Of a stretch of 64,000 nt of DNA, positions 3,861-19,726 are shown piece after piece; position 1 is the stretch's first letter, and each line of letters starts with the position of its first letter. Both the position numbers and the translations under genes were made by a program. The notes below the pieces were generated by a model. The model was not told the DNA's origin and searched no databases. It was given only the letters and a program-made list of their open reading frames with translations. The stretch lies in IMG/VR virus record IMGVR_UViG_2541047759_000001, one strand, 5' to 3'. The stretch comes from a virus. Taxonomy: Duplodnaviria > Heunggongvirae > Uroviricota > Caudoviricetes.

Positions 3861-3953
3861 TATTGGTAAACCTCATCACAGATTTAAGGGTGAACAAATC
3901 TCTGCCATTGCTGACATATAAGAATGAAACTGGATATTTATTACGGTGCTGTT

Positions 3954-4145
3954 TTAAAATCCTGCCGGGATTTCGTTATTATCCTGGTGAATAACTTTAT
4001 CGACCGGATAACAGTTGCCTGGAATTTTCTGTTCGGTTGCTGCTGCCATACATTCCTGCATTGTTCTGTGAACACTGACTGCAATATCAACTGACTCTCC
4101 GGAAACAAGAAAAACCGTCAGAATAAGTGCAAATACTGGATTCAT
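3954..4145 (-). CDS. Small hypothetical protein with hydrophobic N-terminus (possible signal peptide)
   Basis: ATG at 4145 overlaps upstream stop in an ATGA arrangement; 'MNPVFALILTVFLVSG' hydrophobic start; Cys residues. Confidence 0.45.
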   Translation of the reverse strand: MNPVFALILTVFLVSGESVDIAVSVHRTMQECMAAATEQKIPGNCYPVDKVIHQDNNEIPAGF

Positions 4146-4330
4146 TGTGCACATCCTTTTGGCATCAGACGTAAACGGGCCAGCATTGAAACAATGCATA
4201 CTTTATTTAATAACTCCCGTTCGTGTTTTCTTTTGTTAATGGCATCTTCAGTAAATACAGGATTACTGATAGTGACACCAATTTCAAAACAACCTTCAGA
4301 CGTATTAACGTTTGGTAATAACGTTTTCAT
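4142..4330 (-). CDS. Hypothetical small protein
   Basis: 62-aa ORF with GAGGG RBS upstream of ATG at 4330; translationally coupled to the downstream small gene. Confidence 0.35.
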   Translation of the reverse strand: MKTLLPNVNTSEGCFEIGVTISNPVFTEDAINKRKHERELLNKVCIVSMLARLRLMPKGCAQ

Positions 4331-4898
4331 TATCGCGCCCTCAACAATGAGTTTTGTGATGCGGTGCCTGGTGCCTCCAGGTGACGTTAACCAGTTAACA
4401 ATTAACGCCGGATACAGAGAATCCACCCATAACACTGTTTTTGGTTTTAACTGTTCCGCGTGCGCTTAGCCGCATTCACCGCATCACAAAATTCACTTTA
4501 AAAAGGGCGGCAGAGCAGTCACGGAGTAAAACTGATACCGCCAAACGTCACCAGAAAATTGATAACAGAGGGCGTTGCAGTGGGGTTGTCACTTAAGCGT
4601 ATGGTCAACCTGACAACCCGGTGTCCTCAACGGGGGAAGGAATAACCCCGCCATACTTACCGCCGCGCCATTTCGCGGATTGCCACAACCGGAAGCGCAC
4701 GGTCGACGAAAATTTAACGACAGGCTATCTATGAACCAGCTACCTCGCCGTGCGCTTTCGCGTTATGGTCTGACTTTTCAGGGAAATATCCTTTCAGTAA
4801 ACTGTCAGTGCCGGATGCTCACCCGTGTCCGGCGCACGCACTCCACCTCACCCGTGGAGAACTCCTTAATTACCAACCTTAGCTTCGTTGGTTATCTA

Positions 4899-5117
4899 TT
4901 AACGCGGGTATGTAATCATTCTGGCAATGCTTAATGCCGCTGCTTTTTCCAGCCTGGTGATATCCTGCTCCAGAGCGGACAGATTTTCAGCCTGCTTAGC
5001 TCTGGCTTCATTAGCCCATTTCAGATCCTGCGCTGCATTAATTTTCTGGCGCATCCACTCATAAAGTTCATCATCGGTATAGTCTGGCGCGATGATGACG
5101 GGTTCTCGTTTCTGCAT
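4899..5117 (-). CDS. Hypothetical early-leftward-operon protein
   Basis: 72-aa ORF in leftward operon downstream of the cI-side regulatory region. Confidence 0.5.
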   Translation of the reverse strand: MQKREPVIIAPDYTDDELYEWMRQKINAAQDLKWANEARAKQAENLSALEQDITRLEKAAALSIARMITYPR

Positions 5118-5146
5118 ACTGATTCCTCGCGGTGCTGTTTCGCTTA

Positions 5147-5275
5147 TCAGCCGTTAGATTTTGCCGAACTGGAAAGCGCCTGTTTAAATTCGTTGAAGCT
5201 GTGAGCTTCTTCGCCTTCGGCAAGGCCTTCGAAGTATTCTTCGTAAGCCTTTTCCATGATTGTGTCAAAATCCAT
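5147..5275 (-). CDS. Small acidic hypothetical protein (42 aa)
   Basis: AGGTGAG RBS 5 nt upstream of ATG at 5275, 1 nt after the upstream gene stop; below the 60-aa ORF-track cutoff. Confidence 0.45.
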   Translation of the reverse strand: MDFDTIMEKAYEEYFEGLAEGEEAHSFNEFKQALSSSAKSNG

Positions 5276-5276
5276 A

Positions 5277-5513
5277 TCACTCACCTGAGTTTCTTTCCAG
5301 CCAGCGACGGGCACCATTTTCGGTTTTAAACGTTTTGCTTTTTGTATACGTCATTGCGGTGAAGGTGCCGTCCTGGTTTGGAAACACGCCGTACACCAGA
5401 GATTCGTTGTTGCCAAGATCGATAGTATCCATGCTGACCTCATTTCCCCTTAACGCCGGGGTAGCGGAACAAAAACCTGCTGCATAGTTATTAAAGTTGA
5501 ACCCTGCCGTCAT
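5277..5513 (-). CDS. Hypothetical early-leftward-operon protein
   Basis: 78-aa ORF, first gene of the leftward operon. Confidence 0.5.
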   Translation of the reverse strand: MTAGFNFNNYAAGFCSATPALRGNEVSMDTIDLGNNESLVYGVFPNQDGTFTAMTYTKSKTFKTENGARRWLERNSGE

Positions 5514-5638
5514 GTTCTTACGCCTCGGGCTGGCTACTTAACCCCTGACCACTGCCTGGTAACTCGAAGTATTGCCCTGCATTCTGTAGGATGGGGTGAG
5601 GGAATGAATGAAGTTTAGAAAAACGAACTTTTCAGGTC

Positions 5639-5660
5639 AATGTTTTTTTATCAAAACATT
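5639..5660. promoter_or_regulatory. Putative left operator palindrome AATGTTTT-N6-AAAACATT
   Basis: Perfect 8-bp inverted repeat between the cI 3' end and the leftward operon; same half-site as the palindrome at 6362-6380. Confidence 0.45.
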
Positions 5661-5724
5661 TTAAGCAGGCAGCTGTTAAGCCATCACCACGATGGCATAC
5701 AGTTAATCAAATAGATGAGGTTGG

Positions 5725-6363
5725 TTAAATATCTTGTTGAATTTTAAAGCATACGCCCAATATGCAAGATAGATCATCCAGCATAATTGAAGGGTAGCGA
5801 GGATTCGTGGGGACTAAAAGAATATCCGGCCCTTCTATCTCCAGTTTACGAATGACAGGTGTTGTGGTCCCTTTGGGTAAGGCAAGGACAATATTTCCTG
5901 GTTGTACGGTTCGATCGGGATCAACAAAAACTGTTGAACCATTTGGGATGGAAACTCCCCCACCAGATGTTGACATACTGTCACTCTCTAGAACAACTGC
6001 AAAGGTATTGACCGGGATTTCTCCGACAAGCTGCACACAAGAGGTTATTGAGGAATTTTTCATATAATCACTCCAGCTTGCTGCCTGCTGAAGTGATAGT
6101 AGCGGAACCGTTTTTATCGGCGGTAAAGATAGATCAAGCGAATCACCTGTATTTAACTCTCCTCCATTAAGAAGCCAATTTTCGTTTACTTTCAATATTT
6201 TTGCCAGTGAACTTATGTAACGCGAGGACGGCGCTCCTCCACCGTTCATCCATTGACTTACGGAGCCTTTTGATGCGCCAGTGCCATTGACAAGGTCTTT
6301 GCCTTTCAGGTTTAGCGCATGCATACGTTGGGTTATGCGTTCAGATATAGTTTGCTTGCTCAT
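5725..6363 (-). CDS. cI: CI-like repressor, N-terminal HTH plus C-terminal S24 LexA-like peptidase domain
   Basis: 212 aa; HTH-like 'GASKGSVSQWMNG'; C-terminal region with Ser and Lys consistent with a self-cleaving S24 domain; divergent from cro. Confidence 0.8.
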   Translation of the reverse strand: MSKQTISERITQRMHALNLKGKDLVNGTGASKGSVSQWMNGGGAPSSRYISSLAKILKVNENWLLNGGELNTGDSLDLSLPPIKTVPLLSLQQAASWSDYMKNSSITSCVQLVGEIPVNTFAVVLESDSMSTSGGGVSIPNGSTVFVDPDRTVQPGNIVLALPKGTTTPVIRKLEIEGPDILLVPTNPRYPSIMLDDLSCILGVCFKIQQDI

Positions 6364-6380
6364 GTTTTGATTTTAAAACA
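6362..6380. promoter_or_regulatory. Putative right operator palindrome ATGTTTT-N5-AAAACA overlapping the cI start
   Basis: Inverted repeat sharing half-sites with the 5639-5660 palindrome; lies in the cI-cro divergent intergenic region. Confidence 0.45.
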
Positions 6381-6396
6381 CAGATGGTTTTGTTTC

Positions 6397-6424
6397 TTGA
6401 CTTTCTTTGGTTTTGATTATTAAA
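6397..6424 (+). promoter_or_regulatory. Candidate pR-like promoter for cro
   Basis: TTGACT at 6397-6402 and TATTAA at 6419-6424, 16-bp spacer, about 30 nt upstream of the cro ATG. Confidence 0.35.
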
Positions 6425-6454
6425 CTTTTGACGTTCAGTTTTATGGAGCGACTC

Positions 6455-6697
6455 ATGAAAAAATCAGAAGTATTAGGCTATTTTGGCGGAGTTGTTAAAA
6501 CAGCCGCAGCTCTAGGAACGTCAAAAACCACAGTCAGCATGTGGGGGGAAGAGGTTCCGTGGAAATGGGCGTTGCTAATTCAGGCAGTCACTGCCGGGGC
6601 GCTCAAATATGAGTTACACATACCGACGGTTGTCATTCCCGGTTCTGATCATAATCCGCCTTCTAACCAAGGGGGGATTCATGAAAATCAAGCATGA
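6455..6697 (+). CDS. cro: Cro-like HTH regulator
   Basis: GGAG 6 nt upstream of ATG at 6455; 'GYFGGVVKTAAALGTSKTTVSMW' HTH; divergent from cI. Confidence 0.7.
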   Translation: MKKSEVLGYFGGVVKTAAALGTSKTTVSMWGEEVPWKWALLIQAVTAGALKYELHIPTVVIPGSDHNPPSNQGGIHENQA

Positions 6698-7106
6698 ACA
6701 CATCCGCATGGCGATGAATGCCTGGGCGCATCCGGACGGCGAAAAAGTACCGGCTGCGAAAATTACCAAAGCGTATTTCGAGCTGGGAATGACGTTCCCG
6801 GAACTGTATGACGACAGCCATCCGGAAGCCCTGGCTCGCAATACCCAGAAAATTTTCCGCTGGGTAGAGAAAGACACCCCTGATGCAGTTGAAAAAATTC
6901 AGGCGTTGTTACCAGCGATCGAAAAGGCAATGCCACCTTTGCTGGTGGCCAGAATGCGCAGCCACAGTTCAGCTTATTTTCGGGAGCTGGTGGAGACGCG
7001 GGAGCGACTGGTGAGAGACGCTGATGATTTTGTCGCAGTGGCAATCGCCGGTTTCAATCAGATGAACCGTGGTGGCCCGGCAGGAAATGCTGTGGCAGTA
7101 CATTGA
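6681..7106 (+). CDS. Early regulatory protein, YdaT/CII-position protein
   Basis: 141-aa ORF directly downstream of cro, overlapping its end; function assigned by position only. Confidence 0.5.
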   Translation: MKIKHEHIRMAMNAWAHPDGEKVPAAKITKAYFELGMTFPELYDDSHPEALARNTQKIFRWVEKDTPDAVEKIQALLPAIEKAMPPLLVARMRSHSSAYFRELVETRERLVRDADDFVAVAIAGFNQMNRGGPAGNAVAVH

Positions 7107-7177
7107 CTGACAATAGCCATATCGAATCGCTTCCGGCAACTCGTGAGTAAAAAGATTCGGTATCAGAAGAGGTGAGT

Positions 7178-8248
7178 ATGGCTAACGCCTGGCTCAGATT
7201 ATGGCATGACATGCCAAATGACCCTAAGTGGCGAACAATTGCCAGGGTGTCAGGGCAGCCAATTGCAACAGTGATGGCAGTGTATATCCACCTCCTGGTG
7301 AGCGCGTCACGAAATGTCACGCGAGGTCACATTGATGTCACGACAGAAGATTTGGCAAGTGCGCTCGACGTGACAGAAGAGGTAATTGATTCAATTTTGC
7401 AGACGATGCAGGGGCGGGTACTTGATGGTGATTTAATCACTGGATGGGAAAAACGCCAGGTGCTGAAAGAGGACAACGGCAATATTTCGCAAACCGCAAA
7501 ATCTCCGGCAGAGCGCAAGAGGGCGCAGCGAGAGAGGGAAAGAAAGCGGGAACAAAATGGCGATTGTCACGGCGAGTCACGAAATGTCACGCACATGTCA
7601 CGACGAGTCACGACAGATAAAGATACAGATAAAGATACAGATCAAGAAGATCAAAACACTATGGTCCATGGCGTAAAAAACGCCACGAACCAGGCAGGGG
7701 ATGTTCAGACCGTCACTCCTGGCCAGCCCGCAGGCACGACACCGGAAGCCGATTCAGCGTATGCGCTGAAAGCCGATTCGGGCGCTGTGCAGCAGGTGAT
7801 GACCGCAAGGCAGGAGCAATCACACCAACTTCAGCAGCCTGAAGCCGATTCCGCCATTCAGCGGGAAGCCGATCGGGTAGTCCCGGAAAACACCGGGCAG
7901 CCTGTGGGACGAGTGGATTATCCTGATGTGTTCGAACAGGTCTGGCGGGAATACCCGTTGCGTGCCGGGGCAAACCCGAAGAAATCCGCTTTCAGTGCCT
8001 GGAAAGCCAGATTACGCGAGGGGGTGCCACCAGAGGCCATGCTGGATGGCGTGAGGCGTTACGCAAGATACCTTGCGGCTACCGGGAAAACGGGAACGGA
8101 ATTTGTTCAGCGAGCGACGACGTTTTTTGGACCGGACCGGAATTTTGAAAACCCCTGGCTGCTCCCGGTAAGCGGCACGAACAACCAGCGTTGTGTGAAT
8201 CATATTTCTGAACCGGATAACGAAATTCCGCCGGGCTTCAGGGGGTAA
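7178..8248 (+). CDS. Replication initiator, replisome-organiser type, with internal iterons
   Basis: AGAGGTGAG RBS; N-terminal 'WLRLWHDMPNDPKW' domain; two clusters of GTCACG repeats inside the coding region, as in lambda O. Confidence 0.75.
   Translation: MANAWLRLWHDMPNDPKWRTIARVSGQPIATVMAVYIHLLVSASRNVTRGHIDVTTEDLASALDVTEEVIDSILQTMQGRVLDGDLITGWEKRQVLKEDNGNISQTAKSPAERKRAQRERERKREQNGDCHGESRNVTHMSRRVTTDKDTDKDTDQEDQNTMVHGVKNATNQAGDVQTVTPGQPAGTTPEADSAYALKADSGAVQQVMTARQEQSHQLQQPEADSAIQREADRVVPENTGQPVGRVDYPDVFEQVWREYPLRAGANPKKSAFSAWKARLREGVPPEAMLDGVRRYARYLAATGKTGTEFVQRATTFFGPDRNFENPWLLPVSGTNNQRCVNHISEPDNEIPPGFRG
7306..7650. repeat. Origin-like iteron clusters (GTCACG at about 10-bp spacing) followed by AT-rich GATAAAGATACAG repeats
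   Basis: Cluster 1 at 7306-7345 (4 copies), cluster 2 at 7566-7615 (5 copies), AT-rich repeat at 7616-7650. Confidence 0.65.
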
Positions 8249-8288
8249 GTGTTAATTTCTGGTCATGAGGTAATTTTCAGGAGGGCTT

Positions 8289-8711
8289 GTGGCAAAAGTT
8301 TTTACACAAGAAGAGCGGGAAAAAATTAAAGGACAGGTTCTTGAACTCGTACGCCAGAGTGGGCGCGAGACGTTACGACAACTGGAAGCTAAAACTGGGG
8401 CAACAAGATATCTGATGAGCGTTCTGGCCAGAGAGCTGGTTGCCAGTGGCGATGTATACAATTCTGGCTACGGGTTATTCCCGTCTGAACAGGCTCGTAA
8501 AGACTGGCAAAATGCCCGCAAAAAATTATCGAGGGCAAAGCTGAAGAAACCGGTTGTGGTTGATCCGGACCTTATCTGGTCGTTACCTGACGGAGAAATA
8601 CGTCGCTACGACAGTCGCCTAAACATAATCTGTCGCGAGTGCCGGAAGAGTGAAGCTATGCAGCGTGTACTGGCTTTCTATCAGGGTAATTTTCAGGAGG
8701 CGGTACTGTGA
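8289..8711 (+). CDS. Hypothetical phage protein
   Basis: 140-aa ORF with AGGAGG RBS before a GTG start. Confidence 0.55.
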   Translation: MAKVFTQEEREKIKGQVLELVRQSGRETLRQLEAKTGATRYLMSVLARELVASGDVYNSGYGLFPSEQARKDWQNARKKLSRAKLKKPVVVDPDLIWSLPDGEIRRYDSRLNIICRECRKSEAMQRVLAFYQGNFQEAVL

Positions 8712-8768
8712 GTGAAATTAGCTATCAGGCTTCAATTACCGCTGGCATTCGCATCAAAGGAGAGGAGC

Positions 8769-9125
8769 ATGGAAATAAAACCAGAGGATGAGTTAAGCAA
8801 TATCGTTTTATTTCCGGTAAAAGAGGATGACCCTCGTAATCAGGTTAATTTTCTTTATGAGCCATCGGAAAGACCATATTGTCATCACGCCTCTGTCCGG
8901 GTTGACGAAAAAGAGCGTCAGGTCCGCTGTAAAATCTGCGGTGCAGTTGTGGAGCCATTTGACTGGATGCTCTCTGTGGCGAAAAGAGAAAGCAGACTGG
9001 CAGATGATGTAAGGCTCTTGCGTCAGGAGGAGCGGGAAAGGCGAAAAAATATAGAAAAGCTAATTCAGATTGAGCGTAACGCGAAAGCGCGGATACGCAG
9101 GGCGACAAAATCCAGAACTGAATAA
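8769..9125 (+). CDS. Hypothetical zinc-ribbon protein
   Basis: AGGAGAGGAG RBS before ATG; 'CHH...CKICG' Cys/His cluster. Confidence 0.55.
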   Translation: MEIKPEDELSNIVLFPVKEDDPRNQVNFLYEPSERPYCHHASVRVDEKERQVRCKICGAVVEPFDWMLSVAKRESRLADDVRLLRQEERERRKNIEKLIQIERNAKARIRRATKSRTE

Positions 9126-9218
9126 TTAAATTTAGCTCTGTTAAAAATTTAATCCTTAACCGGAGGGATTTCTGCACCCTCAGAACATCAGGAGGCCGCC
9201 CGAAAGGGCGGTAGTTAA

Positions 9219-9401
9219 ATGCGAAAGTTTAAAATAATTATTGAAACGGGAATAGCCGGTGGAGATTTCGAGGATGAATTCGAAGTGGATGATGATGCGA
9301 CGCCTGATGAAATACATGACGAAGCAAAAGATATTTTCTTTAACTACTGCAATTACTCATATCACGAAATAAAAGACAAAGAGGAAGAACAAAATGGCTG
9401 A
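9219..9401 (+). CDS. Small acidic hypothetical protein
   Basis: 60-aa ORF, strongly acidic. Confidence 0.4.
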   Translation: MRKFKIIIETGIAGGDFEDEFEVDDDATPDEIHDEAKDIFFNYCNYSYHEIKDKEEEQNG

Positions 9402-9570
9402 TTTTGGTTCAACTAAATACAACGTCAGTTTTGAAGAATGGCATGAACTGTTAATGGACTATGCAGAGTTACGTGGTGGCAGTGCTGCTGATGCTGAAGC
9501 ATGGCGTGATGATTATGAAGCAGGAAAAACTCCGGTCGAAGCATATTGTGATGAGTGGGGCGATGAATGA
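9394..9570 (+). CDS. Small acidic hypothetical protein (58 aa)
   Basis: ATG at 9394 overlaps the upstream stop; ORF read directly from sequence, below the track cutoff. Confidence 0.4.
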   Translation: MADFGSTKYNVSFEEWHELLMDYAELRGGSAADAEAWRDDYEAGKTPVEAYCDEWGDE

Positions 9571-10053
9571 GCGAGGTTAATTATCAGGAAGGGCATGAAA
9601 CGGCGGGGCAAGCAAAAACAGTGGCATGGCGATATCGCTACGTGAAAAAAAAGGCGTTACGGACTTTCAGGGGAAGTAGTGGTCTGGTGACTGGAAATAT
9701 GTACCGAAAAAAGAGGATTGTAACGACAGGCCGAACTATGAAATTCAGGCCTTATTCACTGCCTCGCCAGTCCCGGTTACATCAGAAGAACTGGTTAAAG
9801 CTGTGCACTTTTATGAACAACTAAAACGCGAAAATCCACCAGCATCCGGAAACCTGATTACAGATTCCCAGATAAGGCAATGAGCTACCTGGCGCAGAAC
9901 GGGCTGATAAGTATGGGGAATGTTTTACGATGAATATTTAGACTAAAGAGTTTGTAACGCTATGTAAGTGATTTTTTCTGGTTTAGATATTTATATGTCC
10001 GGCCAAACTGAGGTGTGTTTAAATGTAATTGCACATTGATTGTAGGAGGAATA

Positions 10054-10233
10054 ATGAAAAACGCATTGCAGTTTTTGTTTGTTGCGTTCTGGTTGTTCGT
10101 ATCATGTATGCCCATCATCTTCACAGCAAGGTATATGGAAAAAGTTGATGTTTTGATATTAATATTTGGATATATAAATGCCCTTTTTTTAGGGGTGTTC
10201 ATGGCGGTCATGTGCATTGAATACTGGCGGTAA
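10054..10233 (+). CDS. Small hydrophobic membrane protein in AT-rich segment
   Basis: AGGAGG RBS 5 nt upstream of ATG at 10054; two predicted hydrophobic helices; low-GC surroundings. Confidence 0.5.
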   Translation: MKNALQFLFVAFWLFVSCMPIIFTARYMEKVDVLILIFGYINALFLGVFMAVMCIEYWR

Positions 10234-10491
10234 ATACAGCGAACGCCATTGGTTTAGTTGGATATTTACTGTGCCGGACAAAAACGGTTTGCGGGGAAAT
10301 CTTAGTTAAGTAGAATGACTGCGGGTGCTTGAGGCTATCTGTCTCAGGCATGAACACCAAAAGGCAGATAGAGAAAAGCCCCAGTTAACATTACGCGTCC
10401 TGCAAGACGCTTAACATTAATCTGAGGCCATATCTATGCGACACATAGAGATTAGCCTCTTACGGACCGAAAGGTCAAGGAGAAGCAGGCT

Positions 10492-10647
10492 ATGAAGCAG
10501 CAAAAGGCGATGTTAATCGCCCTGATCGTCATCTGTTTAACCGTCATAGTGACGGCACTGGTAACGAGGAAAGACCTCTGCGAGGTACGAATCCGAACCG
10601 GCCAGACGGAGGTCGCTGTCTTCACAGCTTACGAACCTGAGGAGTAA
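10492..10647 (+). CDS. hok: Hok/Gef family type I toxin
   Basis: 51-aa translation MKQQKAMLIALIVICLTVIVTALVTRKDLCEVRIRTGQTEVAVFTAYEPEE matches the Hok/Gef family; structured leader upstream and terminator downstream. Confidence 0.85.
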   Translation: MKQQKAMLIALIVICLTVIVTALVTRKDLCEVRIRTGQTEVAVFTAYEPEE

Positions 10648-10717
10648 GAGACCTGGCGGGGGAGAAATCCCTCGCCACCTCTGATGTGTCAGGCATCCTC
10701 AACGCACCCGCACTTAA

Positions 10718-10742
10718 CCCGCTTCGGCGGGTTTTGTTTTTT
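10718..10742 (+). terminator. Intrinsic terminator after hok
   Basis: CCCGCTTCGGCGGG hairpin followed by TTTTGTTTTTT. Confidence 0.7.
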
Positions 10743-10814
10743 CCTGGCATTCTGGTTTACAATTCGCACGTCAGCCTGAACACCTGACACCTGCTGCGCC
10801 AGCAGAGAAAACAG

Positions 10815-11087
10815 ATGGCGCACAAAACCAAATTTCACAATTCTGATACCGACCTTGCCATCCGGCATGAGCGGCGTTCACACGCATTTAAAACCGACTG
10901 GTACCAACACCCACCATGTACTGAAGAACAGGCCGAATGGCTGATTCATTCTTACCGCAGGCGCGGGTTCGAGGTTAAGAAAGCTCTCAGTCTCGACTAT
11001 CGGCACTGGATAATCTCTGTCAGGCTGCCTTATTCCGAACGCCCACCACGTCCGTCCCGCACTTTCCAGCAACGGATCTGGAGGTAA
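10815..11087 (+). CDS. Hypothetical phage protein
   Basis: 90-aa ORF directly upstream of the DUF968 gene. Confidence 0.55.
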   Translation: MAHKTKFHNSDTDLAIRHERRSHAFKTDWYQHPPCTEEQAEWLIHSYRRRGFEVKKALSLDYRHWIISVRLPYSERPPRPSRTFQQRIWR

Positions 11088-11088
11088 C

Positions 11089-12147
11089 GTGCGGGTATTA
11101 CTTAGACCTGTTCTGGTGCCTGAGCTTGGGCTGGTGGTCCTTAAGCCGGGCCGTGAATCCATACAGATATTTCATAATCCTCGAGTGCTGGTGGAGCCGG
11201 AACCGAAAAGCATGTGCGGCCTGCCATCCGGAGTCGTCCCTGCCGTTCGCCAGCCGCTGGCGGAGGATAAATCATTACTGCCATTTTTCAGCAATGAGCG
11301 TGTGATTCGTGCTGCTGGCGGCGCTGGTGCACTGTCTGACTGGCTGTTGCGCCATATTAAATCCTGCCAGTGGCCACACGGTGATTATCACCACAGTGAA
11401 ACCGTCATTCACCGTTATGGTACCGGCGCAATGGTGTTGTGCTGGCACTGCGACAACCAGTTGTGTGACCAGACCTCAGAATCACTTGAGCAACTTGCTC
11501 ACCAAAACTTGTCAGCATGGATGATTGACGTCATCCGTCACGCAATCAGCGGTACGCAGGAGAGGGAGTTATCGCTGGCCGAATTATCCTGGTGGGCGGT
11601 CTGCAATCAGGTGGCTGATGCGCTTCCGGAGTCTGTATTGTGTCGTTCACTGGGATTACCGGTGGAAAAAATCCGCTCCGTATACCGTGAGAGTGACATC
11701 GTACCGGGAGAACAGACTGCCACCAGCATACTGAAGCAGCGCACAAAAAATATTGCGCTGCCACTTCACGTCCACCAGCAACAGCCCCCACTCCAGGAAA
11801 AGACGTTAGTAAGCATCGCCGTTGATCCGGAGTCTCCGGCTCAGTATCTCCAGCGCCAGAAACCACAACGGGAAGAGATGCCTGTATACACGCGCTGGGT
11901 AAAAACGCAGAAATGCATGACGTGCGGTAATCAGGCAGATGATCCGCATCACATCATTGATCATGGCCTGGGAGGTATGGGAACAAAGGCTGATGATTTG
12001 TTTGTTATTCCGCTGTGCCGTAAATGTCATAACGAACTGCACGCCGGGGTAAAAGATTTTGAAGAAAAACACGGCAGCCAGCTGTTGTTGCTGATTCGTT
12101 TTTTAATGCACGCGAGAAATTCGGGTGTCCTGAAGTGGAAAGCATGA
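11089..12147 (+). CDS. DUF968-type phage protein with C-terminal Cys/His cluster
   Basis: 352 aa; C-terminal 'CMTCGN...HHIIDHG...CRKCHNELH' zinc-binding or HNH-like motif; GGAGG RBS with GTG start. Confidence 0.7.
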   Translation: MRVLLRPVLVPELGLVVLKPGRESIQIFHNPRVLVEPEPKSMCGLPSGVVPAVRQPLAEDKSLLPFFSNERVIRAAGGAGALSDWLLRHIKSCQWPHGDYHHSETVIHRYGTGAMVLCWHCDNQLCDQTSESLEQLAHQNLSAWMIDVIRHAISGTQERELSLAELSWWAVCNQVADALPESVLCRSLGLPVEKIRSVYRESDIVPGEQTATSILKQRTKNIALPLHVHQQQPPLQEKTLVSIAVDPESPAQYLQRQKPQREEMPVYTRWVKTQKCMTCGNQADDPHHIIDHGLGGMGTKADDLFVIPLCRKCHNELHAGVKDFEEKHGSQLLLLIRFLMHARNSGVLKWKA

Positions 12148-12510
12148 ATGACTGAACGCATAGAATTTGTTTTGCCTTACCCGCCGACGGTGAATACCTA
12201 CTGGCGACGTCATGGCAATACGTATTTCATCTCGGAGGCCGGAAAGCGTTATCGCCGTGATGTGGCGCTAATTGTTCGCCAGCAGCGGCTGAAATTAAAC
12301 CTGTCCGGAAGGCTGGCGATAAAGGTGATTGCAGAGCCACCGGATAAGCGTCGTCGCGACCTGGACAATATCCTGAAAGCACCGCTGGATGCGCTGACGC
12401 ATGCGGGAGTGTTAATGGACGATGAGCAGTTTGATGAAATCAATATCGTTCGTGGTCAGCCAGTATCTGGTGGACGTCTGGGGGTGAAGATTTACCCCAT
12501 AATGCATTAA
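12148..12510 (+). CDS. rusA: Holliday junction resolvase RusA
   Basis: 120 aa; 'FVLPYPPTVNTYWR' and 'RRDLDN' motifs characteristic of RusA. Confidence 0.85.
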   Translation: MTERIEFVLPYPPTVNTYWRRHGNTYFISEAGKRYRRDVALIVRQQRLKLNLSGRLAIKVIAEPPDKRRRDLDNILKAPLDALTHAGVLMDDEQFDEINIVRGQPVSGGRLGVKIYPIMH

Positions 12511-12524
12511 GAGCAGGTCAAAAA

Positions 12525-13346
12525 ATGAAACTGGAAGATTTACCGAAATACTACTCCCCAAAATCCCCTGGCCTGACCGATGCATCGGCCTCAACGTCAA
12601 AAGATGCGCTGAGTATCACTGATGTGATGGCCGCGCAGGGCATGACACAGAATCGGGCTGAGATGGGTTTTTCTGCGTTCCTGGGGAAAATGGGCATCAG
12701 TATGAATGACAGGGCGCGGGCAACAGAATTACTGGCAGATTATGCACTCAGTCGGTGCGATCGTGTGGCGGCGTTGAGAAAACTTCCGGCAGAAATAAAA
12801 CCGGTAGTGATGCGCATTATGGCTTCGTACGCTTTTGAGGATTATGCCCGCAGCGCAGCGAGTAAAAAGCAGTGCCCTTGTTGCTATGGGGAAAAATTTA
12901 TTGAAAGCGTAGTTTTTACAAACAAGGTCCAGTATCCGGATGGTAAGCCGCCGGTATGGGCAAAGTGTACGAAAGGTGTGTATTCGTCTTACTGGGAAGA
13001 ATGGAAAAAAGTCAGGGAGGTGGTAAAAGTTGCCTGTCCGGAGTGTGGCGGAAAGGGTGAGGTTTCCACCGCCTGTAAGGATTGCCGTGGGCGTGGTGTC
13101 GCCATTCATCGTGAAGAGTCGGTAAAACGTGGTATGCCTGTTATCAGAGACTGCCAGCGTTGTGGTGGTCGTGGCTATGAAAGACTACCATCAACGGAGG
13201 CATTTAATGCTATATGCGAGGTGACAAACCAGATAACACGCGCGTCATGGGAAAAAACAGTTAAGAAATTCTATGATGCGCTGGTGACCCGGTTTGATAT
13301 TGAAGAAGCATGGGCTGAGCGGCAGTTAAAAAAGGTAACTAGGTAA
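12525..13346 (+). CDS. Late gene antiterminator Q-like protein
   Basis: 273 aa with several CxxC zinc-finger pairs; sits immediately upstream of the pR'/tR' unit and tRNAs. Confidence 0.75.
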   Translation: MKLEDLPKYYSPKSPGLTDASASTSKDALSITDVMAAQGMTQNRAEMGFSAFLGKMGISMNDRARATELLADYALSRCDRVAALRKLPAEIKPVVMRIMASYAFEDYARSAASKKQCPCCYGEKFIESVVFTNKVQYPDGKPPVWAKCTKGVYSSYWEEWKKVREVVKVACPECGGKGEVSTACKDCRGRGVAIHREESVKRGMPVIRDCQRCGGRGYERLPSTEAFNAICEVTNQITRASWEKTVKKFYDALVTRFDIEEAWAERQLKKVTR

Positions 13347-13351
13347 CAAGG

Positions 13352-13379
13352 TTGATTTTTCCGGAATCTGTGGTAAATT
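13352..13379 (+). promoter_or_regulatory. Candidate late promoter pR'
   Basis: TTGATT and TAAATT with 16-bp spacer directly after Q; short transcript to the tR' hairpin. Confidence 0.5.
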
Positions 13380-13427
13380 CGTCATAACAATGGGCTTTTT
13401 ATGCCTGACGTTAGAAGAGTTTCTACA

Positions 13428-13455
13428 ACCCGCCGCCGAGCGGGTTTTTTATTGC
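13428..13455 (+). terminator. tR'-like intrinsic terminator
   Basis: ACCCGCCGCCGAGCGGGT hairpin followed by TTTTTTATT. Confidence 0.7.
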
Positions 13456-13489
13456 GGAATTAATTACGGACCGTTATTATTCTGCTCCC

Positions 13490-13565
13490 GGCCCTTTAGC
13501 TCAGTGGTGAGAGCGAGCGACTCATAATCGCCAGGTCGCTGGTTCAAATCCAGCAAGGGCCACCA
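13490..13565 (+). tRNA. ileZ: tRNA with CAU anticodon, tRNA-Ile2 (lysidine) type
   Basis: 76-nt cloverleaf with GGCCCTT/AAGGGCC acceptor stem, CTCATAA anticodon loop, GGTTCAAATCC T-loop, encoded CCA. Confidence 0.85.
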
Positions 13566-13665
13566 TCACAAACCGCCATTAGCTTATCAGGAAGAGCAGA
13601 CGACACGATAACAGGGTTGTTGGTGCGGGGGCGGGTCCCCGATGGCGGTCCATTATCGGTATTCA

Positions 13666-13739
13666 GCGTTGTTAGCTCAGCCGGACAGAGCAATTGCCTT
13701 CTAAGCAATCGGTCACTGGTTCGAATCCAGTACAGCGCG
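13666..13739 (+). tRNA. tRNA-Arg (UCU anticodon), phage-type
   Basis: Acceptor stem with one G-U pair, CTTCTAA anticodon loop, GGTTCGAATCC T-loop; no encoded CCA. Confidence 0.7.
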
Positions 13740-13852
13740 CTATATTCATTCTTCCAGATTCCTTCCGGCAGAGCCTTATACTGAAATATACCTGGCTCAG
13801 GATATTGTTGAAAATATTTTATGTTTGTCAAAAATAAAAGTTCTGTTAAGTA

Positions 13853-14206
13853 TTGATTGAGTGTTTGTTATACGGTCTAATGGTTTTTTCAGCATTAAAT
13901 ATTTATCATTCATATGGTGTGGGTAGAGTGAATATTGATGAGGCGTCGGGGTGTTTCATCCTTAGGCAGCGTATTGATATAGTCAATGCAGGACGAGCAA
14001 AGGCCTTCAGCCGTTTGACAGTTTTGTTCTGTACTCCTGATCGTCTTTCGGGAAGAGACGTTATTATTCTGAATAGTGATGCTATACAGAGGGTTTGCGA
14101 TGAGTTCATGGTTGCTAATTCAGAATTATTTGCTCTTGTTCAGGAGTACAACAGAATAGCCAGTACCTGTGGTATGGATGAACTTCGGATTACTCATCTG
14201 GGGTAG
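13853..14206 (+). CDS. Hypothetical protein in low-GC cargo region (start uncertain, possibly 13880)
   Basis: 117-aa ORF in AT-rich DNA between the tRNAs and the esterase gene. Confidence 0.35.
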   Translation: MIECLLYGLMVFSALNIYHSYGVGRVNIDEASGCFILRQRIDIVNAGRAKAFSRLTVLFCTPDRLSGRDVIILNSDAIQRVCDEFMVANSELFALVQEYNRIASTCGMDELRITHLG

Positions 14207-14653
14207 ATACATATCTGGATTATCACTTGTTACGGTAAAAAGTGATTGCTTACTGTTTTTGTGAGTGGCATTGCAGCAGCCGGATAATGTCAGTGCTGGC
14301 TGACGGTGTGCTGGTGGCGGGTGTGGTGGTTGTTGCTTTCCCGTTGCTGAAAAAGAAAACGCCAGACTGTTAGCCGGGTATCAGTTAGCGGGAGAAATTT
14401 TTAAATACTTCACAATTCAGGCGGTTGACTGTTGTCTGGTTTGCGGGGAGTTTGTTAAAAGAAACTGGCATGGTGAATCCCCCTGTGCGGAGGGGCAATC
14501 AGCGAGTAGGTATATGGGATAATCGCGGATTCAGGTGCTGGTACTGAATTCACCGGGAGGCACCCGGCACCATGCAATGGCACATAGCGCCACTCTCCAG
14601 CCCCTCTCCGGAGGGGCTGTTTATATTGATTTTGTCAGATGTGAGTAAACTCC

Positions 14654-14989
14654 TTATGGACTTTGTTGTTTTAGTCCATAAGGACATATTTGCAGAGTGC
14701 AACGGTTATTAAAGCATTCATTCAATACGTTATCTGTATTTGTAGGACATTCCTGGCTGTTTTTGATTAAATTCCAGAATGTTTTATTGAATGGTGCTAC
14801 GTTGTAAATGGTTACAGGTAGCACTTTGTTATTGAGCATGATACCTGTGTGAGTCAGTGTAAATATACTTTCAGGAGGTAAGAAAGCATCCGATTGATAC
14901 CAGATTATTAATTTTATTTTACTCCATATGACTGAAAAAGATATTCCGCATGATGGCTGGATAACTGTATCAATCACAATCCACTTCAT
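14654..14989 (-). CDS. Hypothetical protein in low-GC cargo region
   Basis: 111-aa ORF; 3' end runs through a 10-bp inverted repeat at 14652-14683, so gene reality is uncertain. Confidence 0.3.
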
Positions 14990-15249
14990 TTAGTTTCCTT
15001 GTTTATGTCTTGCTGGTGATGTTCTGAAAAGTATAAATGATATTTTTGAATGTAAACCATAGAGCAGAATTATTTTTCTGATGTTGTTTATTGTTTATTT
15101 AAATGCAGGGTGGTTTATATCTCGTCTTGTAGTTTATCCATGCATATCTGCTTGATGATGAGGTTTTTATTTAAGGTATGGTTTTGTGTTTTTTCTGTAT
15201 TACATGTCAGGTATTTTAAAGAATTATTTTTCAGATGGTGGAAAGAACC

Positions 15250-17211
15250 ATGGCATTTAAACACTATGATGTTGTCAGGGCGGCATCGCCGTCAGACCTT
15301 GCGAAACGACTGACACAAAAACTGAAGGAGGGGTGGCAGCCATTTGGCAGTCCGGTGGCCATCACGCCTTATACCCTGATGCAGGCCATTGCGGCGGAAG
15401 GTGATGTCACCACACCTGTGGTGGTGAAGCCGTCGGATGGAGAAGGCGCAGTTATCAGCACCACCAGCAACCCGGAGTATTACTTTGTTGTTGCCCTGGC
15501 CGGGCAGTCAAACGGTATGGCGTATGGTGAAGGGCTTCCGCTGCCGGAGACATATGACCGTCCGGACCCGCGTATTAAACAGCTGGCGCGTCGCAGCACT
15601 GTCACGCCGGGTGGTGCGTTCTGTAACTACAATGACATTATTCCTGCGGACCACTGCCTGCATGATGTTCAGGATTTGAGTAAGTTTTCACACCCGAAAG
15701 CCAGTGCAGCTCAGTATGGATGCGTGGGGCAGGGATTACATATCGCGAAGAAATTGTTGCCGTTTATTCCGGCGAATGCCGGTATTCTTCTGGTTCCGTG
15801 CTGCCGTGGTGGTTCTGCATTTTTGGCGGGCGATGAAGGTACCTTCAGCGAATCCACCGGCGCAAGCGAGACCTCGGCACGCTGGGGTGTAGATAAGCCA
15901 CTGTACAAGGACCTGCTTACCCGTACTCAGGCCGCACTGAAGGCCAACCCTAAAAATATTCTGCTTGCAGTGGTCTGGATGCAGGGCGAGTTTGATTTGA
16001 AACAGGGTGCATACGCCACCCAGCCGGGGCTGTTTGATTCCATGGTGGAAAAATATCGTTCTGACCTGTCGGAATTCGGAGGTCAGTGTCTCGGGGGCTC
16101 TCCGTCATCGGTTCCCTGGATTTGTGGCGACACGACCTACTACTGGAAGCAGACTTATTCTTCGCAATACGATGCGGTGTATGGTGCATACAAGACGAAA
16201 TCCGCAAAAAAAATCTTCTTTGTGCCGTTTATGACGGATGAAAACGGGCGAAATGTGGGTACCAACGAGCCGTCAGAAGATCCGGATGTTGCGGATATTG
16301 GGTATTACGGAGCCGGTGGTCGAACGGACGCCAAAACCTGGACGACGGCTGACCGTAAAACGCATTTTGGATCATGGGCACGTCGTGGGATTATTTCCGA
16401 CCGTCTGGCAACGGCGATTCTTGTGCATGCCGGGAGAAACGCTGAATTCATTACCGGAAAACAGCCTGATACGGTGAAGCCCACCGGACCTTCCGGTGAA
16501 GGTACGGAGAGAGAGCCGGAAGCCCCGGTCAGTAACCGAACCCTGATGAGTCTGCTGGCGTCCGGCGAAGACCTGGCATCACAGGGCTGGCGCTATTATC
16601 ACAAACCGGCGAGCGGAGACAATGTTAACAAAAACATTGCTGAAGCGGTGGTCAGTGATGCGGGGGCTACGGGAGGTAAGGCCCTGCAACTGAATAAACC
16701 GGAAAACCACATCTGGTTTCTGGAGCATGATGCAGCCGGACAGGGAGTGGAGTTACTGAAGAAGGGGGGACGTGTGAGCGTACGGTTTAAGTTGCCGGGT
16801 TCACTGGTGCCGAATCAGTTTGCCCTGGGCATTTACTGGCAGTTGTCGTCCCTGCCGGAGGGAGTGACGCTGGCAGAGGAAGGCAACGACATGCTGATGT
16901 CCTTCTTTCTGCAGACGGATGCGACGAACCTGAACGCGATGCACCACAAGAAGCCGAATGCGAAGCTGGAAACGTTCGGGGTCTTTGATAACGGATGGCA
17001 CACACTGGCTTTTGAGTTTGCCGGAAACAACAGCATTCAGGTGACGCCGGTACTGGATGAGAAACGGGGGACGCCGTTCACACTGGTGAAATCTCCGGCA
17101 TCAGGGGCGGCGGACAAACTGCAACTGACAGGCATATCAAAGGCGGCGACATATACGCTGCTGATTGACAGTGTGAAGGTGGAAGTGAACAACGCGGACA
17201 TCGCGGCATGA
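15250..17211 (+). CDS. Phage NanS-p-like protein: N-terminal DUF1737 plus SGNH-type esterase domain
   Basis: 654 aa; N-terminus 'MAFKHYDVVRAASPSDLAKRL...EGWQPFGSP' as in Stx-phage NanS-p esterases. Confidence 0.75.
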   Translation: MAFKHYDVVRAASPSDLAKRLTQKLKEGWQPFGSPVAITPYTLMQAIAAEGDVTTPVVVKPSDGEGAVISTTSNPEYYFVVALAGQSNGMAYGEGLPLPETYDRPDPRIKQLARRSTVTPGGAFCNYNDIIPADHCLHDVQDLSKFSHPKASAAQYGCVGQGLHIAKKLLPFIPANAGILLVPCCRGGSAFLAGDEGTFSESTGASETSARWGVDKPLYKDLLTRTQAALKANPKNILLAVVWMQGEFDLKQGAYATQPGLFDSMVEKYRSDLSEFGGQCLGGSPSSVPWICGDTTYYWKQTYSSQYDAVYGAYKTKSAKKIFFVPFMTDENGRNVGTNEPSEDPDVADIGYYGAGGRTDAKTWTTADRKTHFGSWARRGIISDRLATAILVHAGRNAEFITGKQPDTVKPTGPSGEGTEREPEAPVSNRTLMSLLASGEDLASQGWRYYHKPASGDNVNKNIAEAVVSDAGATGGKALQLNKPENHIWFLEHDAAGQGVELLKKGGRVSVRFKLPGSLVPNQFALGIYWQLSSLPEGVTLAEEGNDMLMSFFLQTDATNLNAMHHKKPNAKLETFGVFDNGWHTLAFEFAGNNSIQVTPVLDEKRGTPFTLVKSPASGAADKLQLTGISKAATYTLLIDSVKVEVNNADIAA

Positions 17212-17567
17212 TAAAAAAAGCCGCCAGCGGCAGGAATGGAAGCTGGCGGAGGTAATCCCAATGGAGAATGTAAAGAAAAGATGCTTTCGACATCAATCAT
17301 TTCTAAATGAAAACAGTTCTCATTGTCAACCATAACGGTAAGAAATTATGACATTTATTCATCAGGTAATGCTGTACTTCTGTATGGCAGTCTGTGTTAT
17401 GTATCTTCTTTCGGGTGGGTACAGGGCAGTGCGCGATTTCTGGCGCAGGCAGATTGATAAAAGGGCCGCTGAGAGAATCAGCGCCAGTCAGTCAGCCGGA
17501 AGCAAACCCGAAGATCCGCTCATTCCGTAGTCACTTTCTTGACAACACCTTTCAACGAGAAAATCCC

Positions 17568-17813
17568 ATGTCAGAAATCACATCCCTGGTCACTGCTGAG
17601 GCAGTGAAGGAAGTCCTGCGCTCTGAAGAAGTCCTGAGCGCACTGAAACAGAAACTCCGCCAGAACCTTGAGTCGCGTCTTGATGCAGAAGTGGATGCCA
17701 TTCTGGATGAGCTGCTGGGCGTACCAGCGGTTCCGGAGCCGGAAGGTATCGCGGGTGACGGGAGTGCTTCAGATGGCGGTGAACCCACACCTGACAGCGA
17801 CATGATGATGTAA
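17568..17813 (+). CDS. Small acidic hypothetical protein
   Basis: 81-aa ORF between the esterase and holin genes; weak RBS. Confidence 0.4.
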
Positions 17814-17889
17814 GCCTGCGCAAGGGACCATCGGTGTGTGCCGGTGGTCTTTATATTGTTGTGAGCTTCCGGATAACGGGAGACGGGGT

Positions 17890-18105: not shown

Positions 18106-18109
18106 AGTG

Positions 18110-19000: not shown

Positions 19001-19036
19001 TGGGCCAGGGACAGCGGCTGAATATTTAATATATCC

Positions 19037-19570: not shown

Positions 19571-19726
19571 GCAGAATATTTTGCTGAAAAATGAGGAATG
19601 GCCACGCGGGCGGATAACACGAAATCCTGCGAACTGGCGAAACGTAAGTGAATAAAAGTAAAAACCCCGTTTGTTGGCACCAAGCGAGGTTTTGTGTTTC
19701 TGACCTTGAGTAAGGCAAGGGAGAAC

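What the first reader, a model, noticed from the sequence alone, without database searches (positions are those of the whole stretch)
10290..10745. hok/sok-type type I toxin-antitoxin locus inside the prophage
A 51-codon ORF encodes a Hok/Gef toxin, preceded by a structured leader with a long inverted repeat (about 10327-10375) and followed by an intrinsic terminator. It was missed by the 60-aa ORF track. Such loci stabilise mobile DNA and can contribute to phage exclusion.
Basis: partly seen in the sequence, partly recalled or inferred. Interest (0 to 1): 0.4.

Follow-up and report, generated by a model that had tools for sequence, protein, structure and literature searches.

The report
Intact hok/mok/sok toxin-antitoxin locus in prophage
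This is a complete, well-known type of RNA-controlled "host-killing" toxin-antitoxin cassette (hokD/hokW type) in the early region of a lambda-like prophage, identical to a locus already annotated in many E. coli genomes, so it is real but ordinary.

Summary
Window 10492-10647 (+) encodes a 51-aa Hok/Gef toxin (Pfam PF01848, E 1.2e-23). Its sequence is that of the hokD CDS of K-12 as aligned. The 170 nt upstream match Rfam RF01794 (106.7 bits, cut-off 59). An intrinsic terminator follows at 10716-10742. All parts of the hok/sok regulatory system are present: weak hok promoter, 5'-end tac element pairing with a 3' fbi element (12 bp), ucb/dcb boxes, a mok leader ORF with its own Shine-Dalgarno, and a convergent Sok antisense gene (about 10444 to 10370, minus strand) with promoter hexamers and a terminator-like hairpin. 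The 420-nt mRNA is highly structured (z = -8.4). The 551-nt region is 100% identical in many E. coli chromosomes, where it is annotated hokD. It is 91% identical to the experimentally validated hokW-sokW of phage 933W/Sp5. K-12 hokD is a truncated copy lacking the leader. One local peculiarity: mok here is only 19 codons and its UGA overlaps the hok AUG (AUGA), a minority variant (11 of 80 related phage loci). In passing, the Sok-recognition hairpin is a diversity hotspot among loci with identical toxin. Verdict: already known, low interest.

The parts
10289..10316 (+). Putative hok promoter: -35-like TTGCGG (10289-10294), 16-nt spacer, -10 TAGAAT (10311-10316).
   Evidence: Read directly from the sequence. 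The region from about 10284 to the -10 is conserved in 933W. It scores 8 of 12 hexamer matches, which is below the 9 of 12 threshold of the promoter scan, so the scan did not call it. The assignment is an inference.
10323..10742 (+). Full-length hok mRNA (about 420 nt), 5' end inferred at G10323.
   Evidence: The Rfam RF01794 model starts at 10323. The terminator ends at 10742. MFE is -175.1 kcal/mol with z = -8.36. The 5' end is inferred from homology and the -10 spacing, not mapped.
10323..10334 (+). tac (translational activator) element at the mRNA 5' end.
   Evidence: It pairs with 10697-10709 in the full-length MFE structure. It pairs with 10375-10381 when the leader is folded alone and in the Rfam consensus structure. 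All 12 positions are invariant in the 62 related mRNAs.
10324..10382 (+). 5' leader inverted repeat and hairpin (arms 10324-10344 and 10362-10382), including ucb (anti-mok-SD box, about 10375-10382).
   Evidence: the repeat finder pair I1. In the full-length fold, 10378-10384 pair with 10422-10428, which covers the mok SD. In the leader-alone fold, 10375-10381 pair with tac.
10370..10444 (-). Sok antisense RNA gene (about 70-75 nt), ends inferred.
   Evidence: Homology to the annotated sokW of 933W, L001 1594-1664 (-). The candidate RNA folds into a 5' tail or small hairpin plus a long hairpin followed by GGGGCUUUU, at -31.7 kcal/mol. It is complementary to the mok SD and start codon. Expression was not tested.
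10449..10478 (-). Putative Sok promoter: -35 TTGACC (10478 to 10473), 18-nt spacer, -10 TAATCT (10454 to 10449).
   Evidence: Read from the reverse complement. The -10 is at the position of sokW TAACCT, which Takada et al. mutated to abolish sokW expression (primers YO-421 and YO-422). It scores 8 of 12, so the promoter scan did not call it.
10424..10459 (+). Sok-target hairpin: mok SD GAGGC (10424-10428) pairs with dcb GCCUC (10455-10459). The inner stem 10430-10438 / 10444-10452 holds the mok AUG.
   Evidence: Rfam consensus structure, the repeat finder pair I6, and a fold of -12.9 kcal/mol. All 18 sequence variants of this hairpin in relatives fold similarly, at -8.4 to -14.3 kcal/mol.
10436..10495 (+). 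mok-like leader ORF: 19 codons (MRHIEISLLRTERSRRSRL), with UGA at 10493-10495 overlapping the hok AUG (AUGA).
   Evidence: Translation. The SD GAGG lies 8 nt upstream. The ATG is at the same position as annotated mokW in 933W. The same variant occurs in 11 of 80 IMG/VR loci.
10477..10482 (+). hok Shine-Dalgarno (AAGGAG), 9 nt upstream of the AUG.
   Evidence: Read from the sequence. It is conserved in all aligned relatives, including K-12 hokD and R1.
10492..10647 (+). hok toxin gene, 51 aa, same sequence as the K-12 hokD CDS as aligned.
   Evidence: ORF listing, Pfam PF01848 at 1.2e-23, PHROG 251. RefSeq names it hokD, WP_000813254.1. The CDS aligns with K-12 hokD without any difference.
10697..10709 (+). 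fbi (fold-back inhibitory) element.
   Evidence: 12 bp with 10323-10334 in the MFE structure. A 9-nt perfect complement links 10320-10328 and 10704-10712. The pairs are 100% maintained in the 62 relatives. R1 has GGCGCUU/AAGCGCC at the homologous sites where this locus has GGGUGCUU.../...GCACCC.
10716..10742 (+). Intrinsic terminator of the hok mRNA.
   Evidence: Terminator scan: AACCCGCTTCGGCGGGTT followed by TTGTTTTTT.

Best explanation
The locus is an intact hok/mok/sok type I toxin-antitoxin cassette of the hokD/hokW lineage. It sits between the replication genes and the Q antiterminator of a lambdoid prophage.

**Likely mechanism, by homology with R1 hok/sok and Sp5 hokW-sokW**

1. A weak promoter makes a stable 420-nt hok mRNA.
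2. In that mRNA the 5' end (tac) pairs with the 3' fbi element, and the ucb box sequesters the mok Shine-Dalgarno. The full-length RNA is therefore neither translated nor bound by Sok.
3. Slow 3' trimming removes fbi. tac then pairs with ucb, and the mok SD moves into the target hairpin.
4. If Sok RNA is present, it pairs with this region, blocks mok translation and triggers decay of the duplex. Sok is short-lived and is made from the convergent promoter at 10478-10449.
5. If Sok is absent, ribosomes translate the 19-codon mok. They terminate on the UGA that overlaps the hok AUG, and so open or re-initiate at hok.
6. Hok then inserts into the inner membrane and kills or lyses the cell.

Sok would run out when transcription of the locus stops or is disturbed. 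Prophage induction, prophage loss, or host shut-off by an infecting phage could each do this.

**Shown here:** every sequence and structure element, and identity to annotated loci.

**Inferred:** transcript ends, expression, coupling through the 19-codon mok, and the biological role.
For: - **Toxin:** Pfam HOK_GEF at 1.2e-23 and PHROG 251 at 2.8e-33.
- **Leader:** Rfam RF01794 at 106.7 bits, ending exactly on the hok AUG.
- **tac/fbi:** 12 bp in the MFE structure, and the mRNA has z = -8.36. The tac/fbi conformation is 21.7 kcal/mol more stable than one with tac/ucb enforced in the full-length RNA. The leader folded alone forms tac/ucb.
- **mok SD:** paired to ucb in the full-length fold and to dcb in the Rfam structure.
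- **Sok:** promoter hexamers and a terminator-like hairpin lie at the positions of annotated sokW. The -10 matches the hexamer mutated by Takada et al..
- **Identity to known loci:** 100% identity to DNA annotated hokD in many E. coli chromosomes, and 375 records at 99% or more. 91.4% identity to hokW/mokW/sokW, which was shown to be a functional type I TA (PMC8621323).
- **mok length:** in R1, mok needs to be translated only as far as the hok initiation region, and stops after the hok start have no effect (PMC9841398). A 19-codon mok ending at the hok AUG fits this.
- **Toxicity:** HokD is listed among the toxic homologues used as controls (bioRxiv 10.1101/2025.08.07.668861).
Against: - Neither promoter reaches the 9 of 12 threshold of the consensus scan.
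- The unconstrained MFE of the 3'-trimmed RNA pairs tac with 10341-10358 rather than with ucb. The published active fold is 8 kcal/mol above that MFE.
- The close relatives are too similar (96% mean identity) to give much covariation: 5 pairs with double changes, and tac/fbi never vary.
- The 19-codon mok is a minority variant with a 2-nt deletion in the target loop. Coupling through it is untested.
- I see no YUNR motif in the predicted 5-nt loop CGACA. YUNR is the loop motif that, as I recall it, aids Sok recognition.
- Chromosomal hok loci tested earlier did not mediate post-segregational killing (cited).
Confidence: 0.88

Rival explanations
1. The locus is a silent or decaying copy. All motifs are recognisable, but the 1-nt net frame change that truncates mok to 19 codons, the shortened target loop and the weak promoters leave it non-functional. 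It would then resemble the K-12 chromosomal hok loci, which are regarded as inactivated.
For: - mok is 19 codons here, against 70 aa in frame with hok in 66 of 80 related loci.
- Both promoters fall below the scan threshold.
- K-12 hokA, C, D and E are reported as inactivated, and chromosomal loci did not give post-segregational killing.
Against: - No element is disrupted. The hok ORF, both Shine-Dalgarno sequences, tac, fbi, ucb, dcb and the terminator are all intact.
- The exact 551-nt sequence is kept in many unrelated E. coli lineages, including ST131, ETEC H10407 and O114:H49.
- The R1 data say that translating mok only as far as the hok start is sufficient.
- An AUGA stop/start overlap is a classical coupling arrangement (general knowledge).
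- The K-12 hokD decay is of a different kind: its whole leader is replaced by relE.
Confidence: 0.1
2. The Rfam 'sok' hit marks an independent plus-strand small RNA rather than the hok leader, and the 51-aa ORF is a separately expressed small membrane protein without antisense control.
For: Rfam names the family 'sok antitoxin', and the hit is on the plus strand.
Against: - The model's last three positions are the hok AUG, and the hit is contiguous with the ORF.
- The 5' end of the hit pairs with a site downstream of the ORF stop, which only makes sense for a single 420-nt transcript.
- 933W annotates the antisense RNA on the opposite strand.
- No terminator lies between the leader and hok.
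Confidence: 0.02

Closest known systems
hokD as annotated by RefSeq/PGAP in E. coli prophages (e.g. EC958 EC958_RS11290, WP_000813254.1; also JJ1886, ETEC H10407)
   Same: The 551 nt at 10250-10800 are 100% identical. The neighbourhood in the EC958 record is the same, running DUF977 ... hokD, DUF968, RusA, antiterminator, tRNA-Ile, tRNA-Arg. The window is 98.9% identical to EC958 over 8186-15407.
   Different: Nothing differs in the locus itself. RefSeq annotates only the hok CDS, not mok, Sok or the RNA elements. The rest of the prophage is mosaic relative to EC958.
hokW-mokW-sokW of Stx2 phage 933W / Sakai prophage Sp5
   Same: 91.4% nucleotide identity over 440 nt. The tac, ucb, Sok body, dcb, hok SD and fbi elements match. 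Hok is identical except for 4 C-terminal residues. The Sp5 locus is an experimentally shown type I TA: HokW is toxic, sokW counteracts it, and Sok disappears on mitomycin C treatment (PMC8621323).
   Different: mokW is in frame with hokW, giving a 70-aa N-terminally extended Hok, whereas mok here has 19 codons ending on the hok AUG. The target-hairpin sequence differs. 933W has no matching terminator hairpin after fbi in the aligned stretch. In 933W the locus lies near the right end of the genome, whereas here it is between the replication genes and Q.
hok/sok (parB) of plasmid R1
   Same: The architecture and order of elements match: 5' tac, hairpin, ucb, Sok region, mok SD and AUG in the target hairpin, 19 mok codons before the hok AUG, hok, fbi, terminator. 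tac/fbi complementarity is kept through different sequences at the homologous sites.
   Different: Hok is only about 44% identical (value given for HokW against R1 Hok). R1 mok continues for 70 codons in a different frame. R1 is plasmid-borne, with post-segregational killing and T4 exclusion reported for it.
hokD (relF) of E. coli K-12, Qin cryptic prophage
   Same: The hok CDS aligns without any difference, and the 3' UTR, fbi and terminator are near-identical.
   Different: The K-12 copy shares sequence only from the hok SD onwards. Its upstream region is relE, so tac, ucb, mok and sok are all missing. The window holds the complete form of the locus.

Membership tests
[quoted passage not shown] | Small (about 50 aa) Hok/Gef membrane toxin (Pfam PF01848). 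| tested here: met
   E 1.2e-23, 82.9 bits against a cut-off of 22, covering the whole 42-position profile. NCBIfam Hok subfamily at 48.5 bits, which is below its strict cut-off of 73. PHROG 251 at 2.8e-33.
[quoted passage not shown] | Conserved structured hok mRNA leader (Rfam RF01794). | tested here: met
   106.7 bits against a gathering score of 59, full model 1-157, ending on the hok AUG.
[quoted passage not shown] | Long-range 5'-3' pairing (tac/fbi) that locks the full-length mRNA. | tested here: met
   12 bp, 10323-10334 with 10697-10709, in both the MFE and the centroid structure. The pairs are 100% kept in the 62 relatives, but they do not vary there. Sequences differ yet stay complementary in R1.
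[quoted passage not shown] | Switch boxes: ucb can pair with either tac or the mok SD, and dcb can pair with the mok SD. | tested here: met
   ucb/mok-SD pairing appears in the full-length fold. tac/ucb pairing appears in the leader-alone MFE and in the Rfam structure. GAGGC/GCCUC form 5 perfect pairs. Caveat: the MFE of the 3'-trimmed RNA chose another tac partner.
[quoted passage not shown] | mok leader ORF with its own SD, translated at least up to the hok initiation region. | tested here: met
   GAGG, then 8 nt, then ATG at 10436. The ORF has 19 codons, and its UGA at 10493-10495 overlaps the hok AUG. R1 also has 19 mok codons before hok, and only those are needed. Actual coupling was not testable.
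[quoted passage not shown] | Cis-encoded antisense Sok gene with promoter and terminator, overlapping the mok initiation region. | tested here: inconclusive
   Hexamers TTGACC, 18 nt, TAATCT, and a hairpin followed by a U-rich tail, are present at the sokW-homologous positions. The promoter is below the scan threshold, and expression cannot be tested here.
[quoted passage not shown] | YUNR (U-turn) motif in the target loop that speeds Sok recognition. This feature is recalled from Franch et al. 1999 and was not re-read here. | tested here: inconclusive
   By my reading, the predicted loop CGACA (10439-10443) holds no YUNR, while the 933W loop CUGAACA and the L006-type loop CUAGACA do. Loop boundaries are predictions.
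[quoted passage not shown] | Hok toxicity and neutralisation by Sok. | not testable with these tools
   HokD is listed among the toxic control homologues. HokW/sokW were shown functional. Nothing has been done on this exact locus.
Lambdoid prophage accessory (moron-like) gene | Located inside a prophage, between phage core genes. | tested here: met
   The integrase, exonuclease VIII, S24 repressor and DUF977 genes lie upstream. DUF968, RusA, Q, tRNAs and the lysozyme gene lie downstream. 576 or more related loci occur in IMG/VR viral contigs.

The most novel reading that the evidence does not exclude
Among prophage hokD/hokW loci that encode the very same toxin, the roughly 26-nt inner part of the Sok-target hairpin behaves as a hypervariable specificity cassette. 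This stretch holds the mok start region, the complement of the Sok 5' recognition end and part of the Sok -10. It has 18 variants, nucleotide diversity 0.26 against 0.015 at hok third codon positions, and the hairpin fold is always kept. Its indels freely change the mok frame: in frame with hok, overlapping out of frame, or, as here, 19 codons ending on the hok AUG. This could reflect diversifying selection that makes the Sok antitoxins of co-resident prophages orthogonal. Each prophage would then keep its own private kill switch.
Probability: 0.3. Interest if true: 0.4.

Novelty: already known. Interest (0 to 1): 0.15.

Why it matters
It matters little as a discovery. The same DNA is already annotated as hokD in many E. 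coli genomes, and the family mechanism is a textbook case.

It is still useful for annotation. It shows that the 'hokD' of many pathogenic E. coli prophages is the complete hok/mok/sok module, of which K-12 hokD is a truncated remnant. It also shows that standard annotation omits mok, Sok and the RNA switch.

If the locus is functional, it is a candidate contributor to lysis timing on prophage induction, as shown for hokW-sokW. It could also contribute to prophage retention or abortive infection.

The side observation would be a modest but testable addition to type I TA biology. It concerns the variable Sok-recognition cassette and the free choice of mok frame.

Tried and rejected
- **Promoter scan.** The sigma-70 consensus scan of 10100-10900 found no promoter. 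Both proposed promoters score 8 of 12 and rest on homology.
- **Folding the 3'-trimmed mRNA.** The MFE did not reproduce the published tac/ucb active fold. Enforcing tac/ucb costs about 8 kcal/mol. I do not claim the active fold from thermodynamics.
- **Covariation on 62 close relatives.** The sequences are too similar. tac/fbi are invariant, and only 4-5 pairs show double changes. The MAFFT alignment of the variable hairpin is not structure-aware, so its 'not paired' counts are partly artefacts. I folded the 18 variants individually instead.
- **Test of the orthogonality idea using co-resident copies.** Only three genome pairs were available among the loci fetched. Two pairs differ and one is identical, so the test has no statistical power.
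- **Independent plus-strand sRNA reading of the Rfam hit.** Rejected, because the model ends on the hok AUG and the RNA pairs end to end.
- **Chance ORF.** Rejected on Pfam and PHROG E-values.
- I did not run the protein-database, structure-prediction or metagenome tools, because the identity of the locus was settled by cheaper searches.

Full report
**1. The observation**

The region was read directly. A 51-codon ATG ORF lies at 10492..10647 on the plus strand. It matches:

- Pfam HOK_GEF over the full profile, E 1.2e-23;
- PHROG 251 'MokW-like host killing', 2.8e-33;
- the NCBIfam Hok subfamily, more weakly: 48.5 bits, below its strict cut-off.

The 170 nt upstream match Rfam RF01794 at 106.7 bits, against a gathering score of 59, over the whole model. 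An intrinsic terminator follows: stem 10716-10733, then a T run to 10742. The transcript 10323-10742 folds far better than shuffled controls, -175.1 against -125.4 +/- 6.0 kcal/mol, z = -8.36.

**2. Context**

The locus lies inside a lambdoid prophage.

- Upstream: lambda-type integrase (1-1119, minus), an exonuclease VIII-like gene, DicF RNA, an S24/HTH repressor and DUF977.
- Downstream: a phrog_1212 ORF, DUF968, RusA, antiterminator Q, two tRNAs, STnc100 and a phage lysozyme.

It points the same way as the replication-to-Q genes.

The 551 nt at 10250-10800 are 100% identical in many E. coli chromosomes, including EC958, JJ1886 and ETEC H10407. There the ORF is annotated hokD. 4,956 of 5,426 complete genomes hold a related place, with a median of 2 per genome that has any. 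In EC958 the neighbourhood is the same, although the window is a mosaic relative of that prophage: 98.9% identity over 8186-15407 only.

**3. Anatomy**

I aligned the locus with 933W hokW/mokW/sokW, a Rac-like phage, an R1-type plasmid locus and K-12 hokD. The alignment places every element.

- **hok promoter.** A -10 TAGAAT (10311-10316) and a weak -35 precede G10323, where the Rfam model starts.
- **tac/fbi.** The 5' 12 nt (tac) pair with 10697-10709 (fbi) in the MFE and centroid structures. A 9-nt perfect complement lies at 10320-10328 / 10704-10712. R1 has different but again complementary sequences at the homologous sites.
- **ucb and the mok SD.** In the full-length fold the mok Shine-Dalgarno (GAGG, 10424-10427) is paired with 10378-10384 (ucb).
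- **tac/ucb.** When the leader is folded alone, tac pairs with 10375-10381, as in the Rfam consensus.
- **dcb.** GAGGC can also pair with GCCUC at 10455-10459 (dcb), forming the Sok-target hairpin that holds the mok AUG.
- **Energetics.** In the full-length RNA the tac/fbi state is 21.7 kcal/mol better than a tac/ucb state.

This set of mutually exclusive pairings is the published hok switch (PMC9841398). One caveat: the unconstrained MFE of a 3'-trimmed RNA chose another partner for tac. The active fold is therefore inferred from homology, not from thermodynamics.

**4. Sok**

On the minus strand there is TTGACC (10478-10473), an 18-nt spacer, and TAATCT (10454-10449). The -10 sits exactly where sokW has TAACCT, the hexamer that Takada et al. 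mutated to silence sokW (primers).

A start near 10442-10444 and an end near 10370 correspond to the annotated sokW and to the R1 Sok ends implied by published primers. The candidate RNA folds into a short 5' region, a long hairpin and a GGGGCUUUU tail, at -31.7 kcal/mol.

Both promoters score 8 of 12 and were not called by the consensus scan. Expression cannot be tested here.

**5. mok**

The ATG at 10436, 8 nt after GAGG, opens a 19-codon ORF. Its UGA (10493-10495) overlaps the hok AUG.

I compared this with 80 IMG/VR loci that encode the identical Hok:

| mok arrangement | Loci |
|---|---|
| mok ATG 57 nt upstream and in frame (70-aa extended Hok, as annotated mokW) | 66 |
| Arrangement of this window | 11 |
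| Leader missing, as in K-12 hokD | 3 |

A Rac-like phage has a third frame, giving a 68-aa mok.

In R1 the first 19 mok codons precede hok, and only translation up to the hok initiation region is needed (PMC9841398). The short mok is therefore compatible with function, probably through termination-reinitiation at AUGA. This is an inference.

**6. What it most likely does**

By homology it works as the R1 and Sp5 systems do. A stable, self-locked toxin mRNA is slowly activated by 3' trimming. It is held in check by an unstable antisense RNA that blocks the leader ORF.

For Sp5 hokW-sokW, mitomycin C made sokW disappear and HokW appeared in a RecA-dependent way. Deletion of the locus halved phage release (PMC8621323). 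R1 hok/sok is reported to exclude T4. Recent surveys find hok enriched in prophages.

I therefore favour a role in which Hok is released when Sok synthesis stops. That could happen on induction, on loss of the element, or on host shut-off. In this prophage the locus lies in the rightward early region, so read-through transcription on induction could also interfere with the convergent Sok promoter. This last point is speculation.

**7. Comparison and novelty**

The locus is the complete form of hokD. K-12 hokD shares sequence only from the hok SD onwards, with relE upstream. It is a close relative of hokW-sokW, at 91.4% identity, and a distant one of R1 hok/sok.

All defining features that can be tested in silico are met. 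Sok expression and toxicity are not testable here. A YUNR loop motif was not seen in the predicted 5-nt loop, which I treat as inconclusive.

Because identical DNA is already annotated and the mechanism is a textbook one, the finding is 'already known'. Interest is 0.15.

**8. Side observation**

In 62 unique related mRNAs (96% mean identity), variation is concentrated in the inner target hairpin.

- Nucleotide diversity is 0.26 there, against 0.015 at hok third codon positions and 0.03-0.09 in the other untranslated parts.
- All 18 variants still fold into a similar hairpin.

This is the region where Sok recognises its target, so the pattern could reflect selection for private antitoxin specificities among co-resident prophages. 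Two cautions apply: the sample was selected for identical Hok, and hok third positions are also constrained by RNA structure. My only direct check was three genome pairs, two of them different and one identical. That check has no power.

Noticed in passing
window 10429-10454 (alignment A1 columns about 107-134): Among 62 unique hokD-type mRNAs encoding the same toxin, the inner Sok-target hairpin is a sharp diversity hotspot. Nucleotide diversity is 0.26 there, against 0.015 at hok third codon positions. There are 18 variants, and all fold to a similar hairpin. The indels in this stretch change the mok reading frame relative to hok.
   Followed up: partly
window 10630-10633: Tyr47 of Hok is encoded by TAC followed by G, a UACG motif as in known TadA A-to-I editing sites. 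The sequence here is identical to K-12 hokD, whose mRNA is reported to be 6% edited, recoding this Tyr to Cys (PMC12214031). Editing at A10631 would give the second conserved Cys.
   Followed up: partly
window 10323-10494: Rfam RF01794 is named 'sok antitoxin', but it matches the hok-sense strand and its last three positions are the hok AUG. It therefore models the hok mRNA leader. The real Sok gene is on the opposite strand.
   Followed up: yes
window 10689-10868 (-): A 59-aa ORF antisense to the hok 3' UTR, terminator and the start of the next gene. RefSeq annotates it as a hypothetical protein (WP_001112736.1 in EC958), and it matches phrog_2947 at 1.3e-44. I could not tell whether it is a real gene or an annotation artefact propagated across genomes.
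   Followed up: no
window 4505-4556 (-), 14439-14628 (+), 13490-13562 and 13666-13739 (+): Other Rfam hits in the prophage: DicF antisense RNA (76.7 bits), sRNA STnc100 downstream of Q (132.4 bits), and two tRNAs. In the EC958 record the two tRNAs downstream of the antiterminator gene are annotated tRNA-Ile and tRNA-Arg.
   Followed up: no
window 10015-10233 (+) and 10815-11087 (+): hok is flanked by two small ORFs of unknown function. One is a 72-aa hydrophobic ORF with no Pfam or PHROG match. The other is a 90-aa ORF matching phrog_1212 (4.4e-36, unknown function).
   Followed up: no
window 1-20000 versus L003 (EC958 prophage): The prophage is mosaic relative to the EC958 prophage that carries the identical hok locus. 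Identity is 98.9% over window 8186-15407, 97-98% in two early-region blocks, about 84-87% in the lysis genes and one further early-region block (6676-7095), and there is no match elsewhere.
   Followed up: partly
L037, L041, L082 (IMG/VR loci): Three of the 80 viral-contig loci with identical Hok lack the tac/mok/sok leader. L037 carries the same upstream sequence as K-12 hokD, so the truncated form is not confined to K-12.
   Followed up: no
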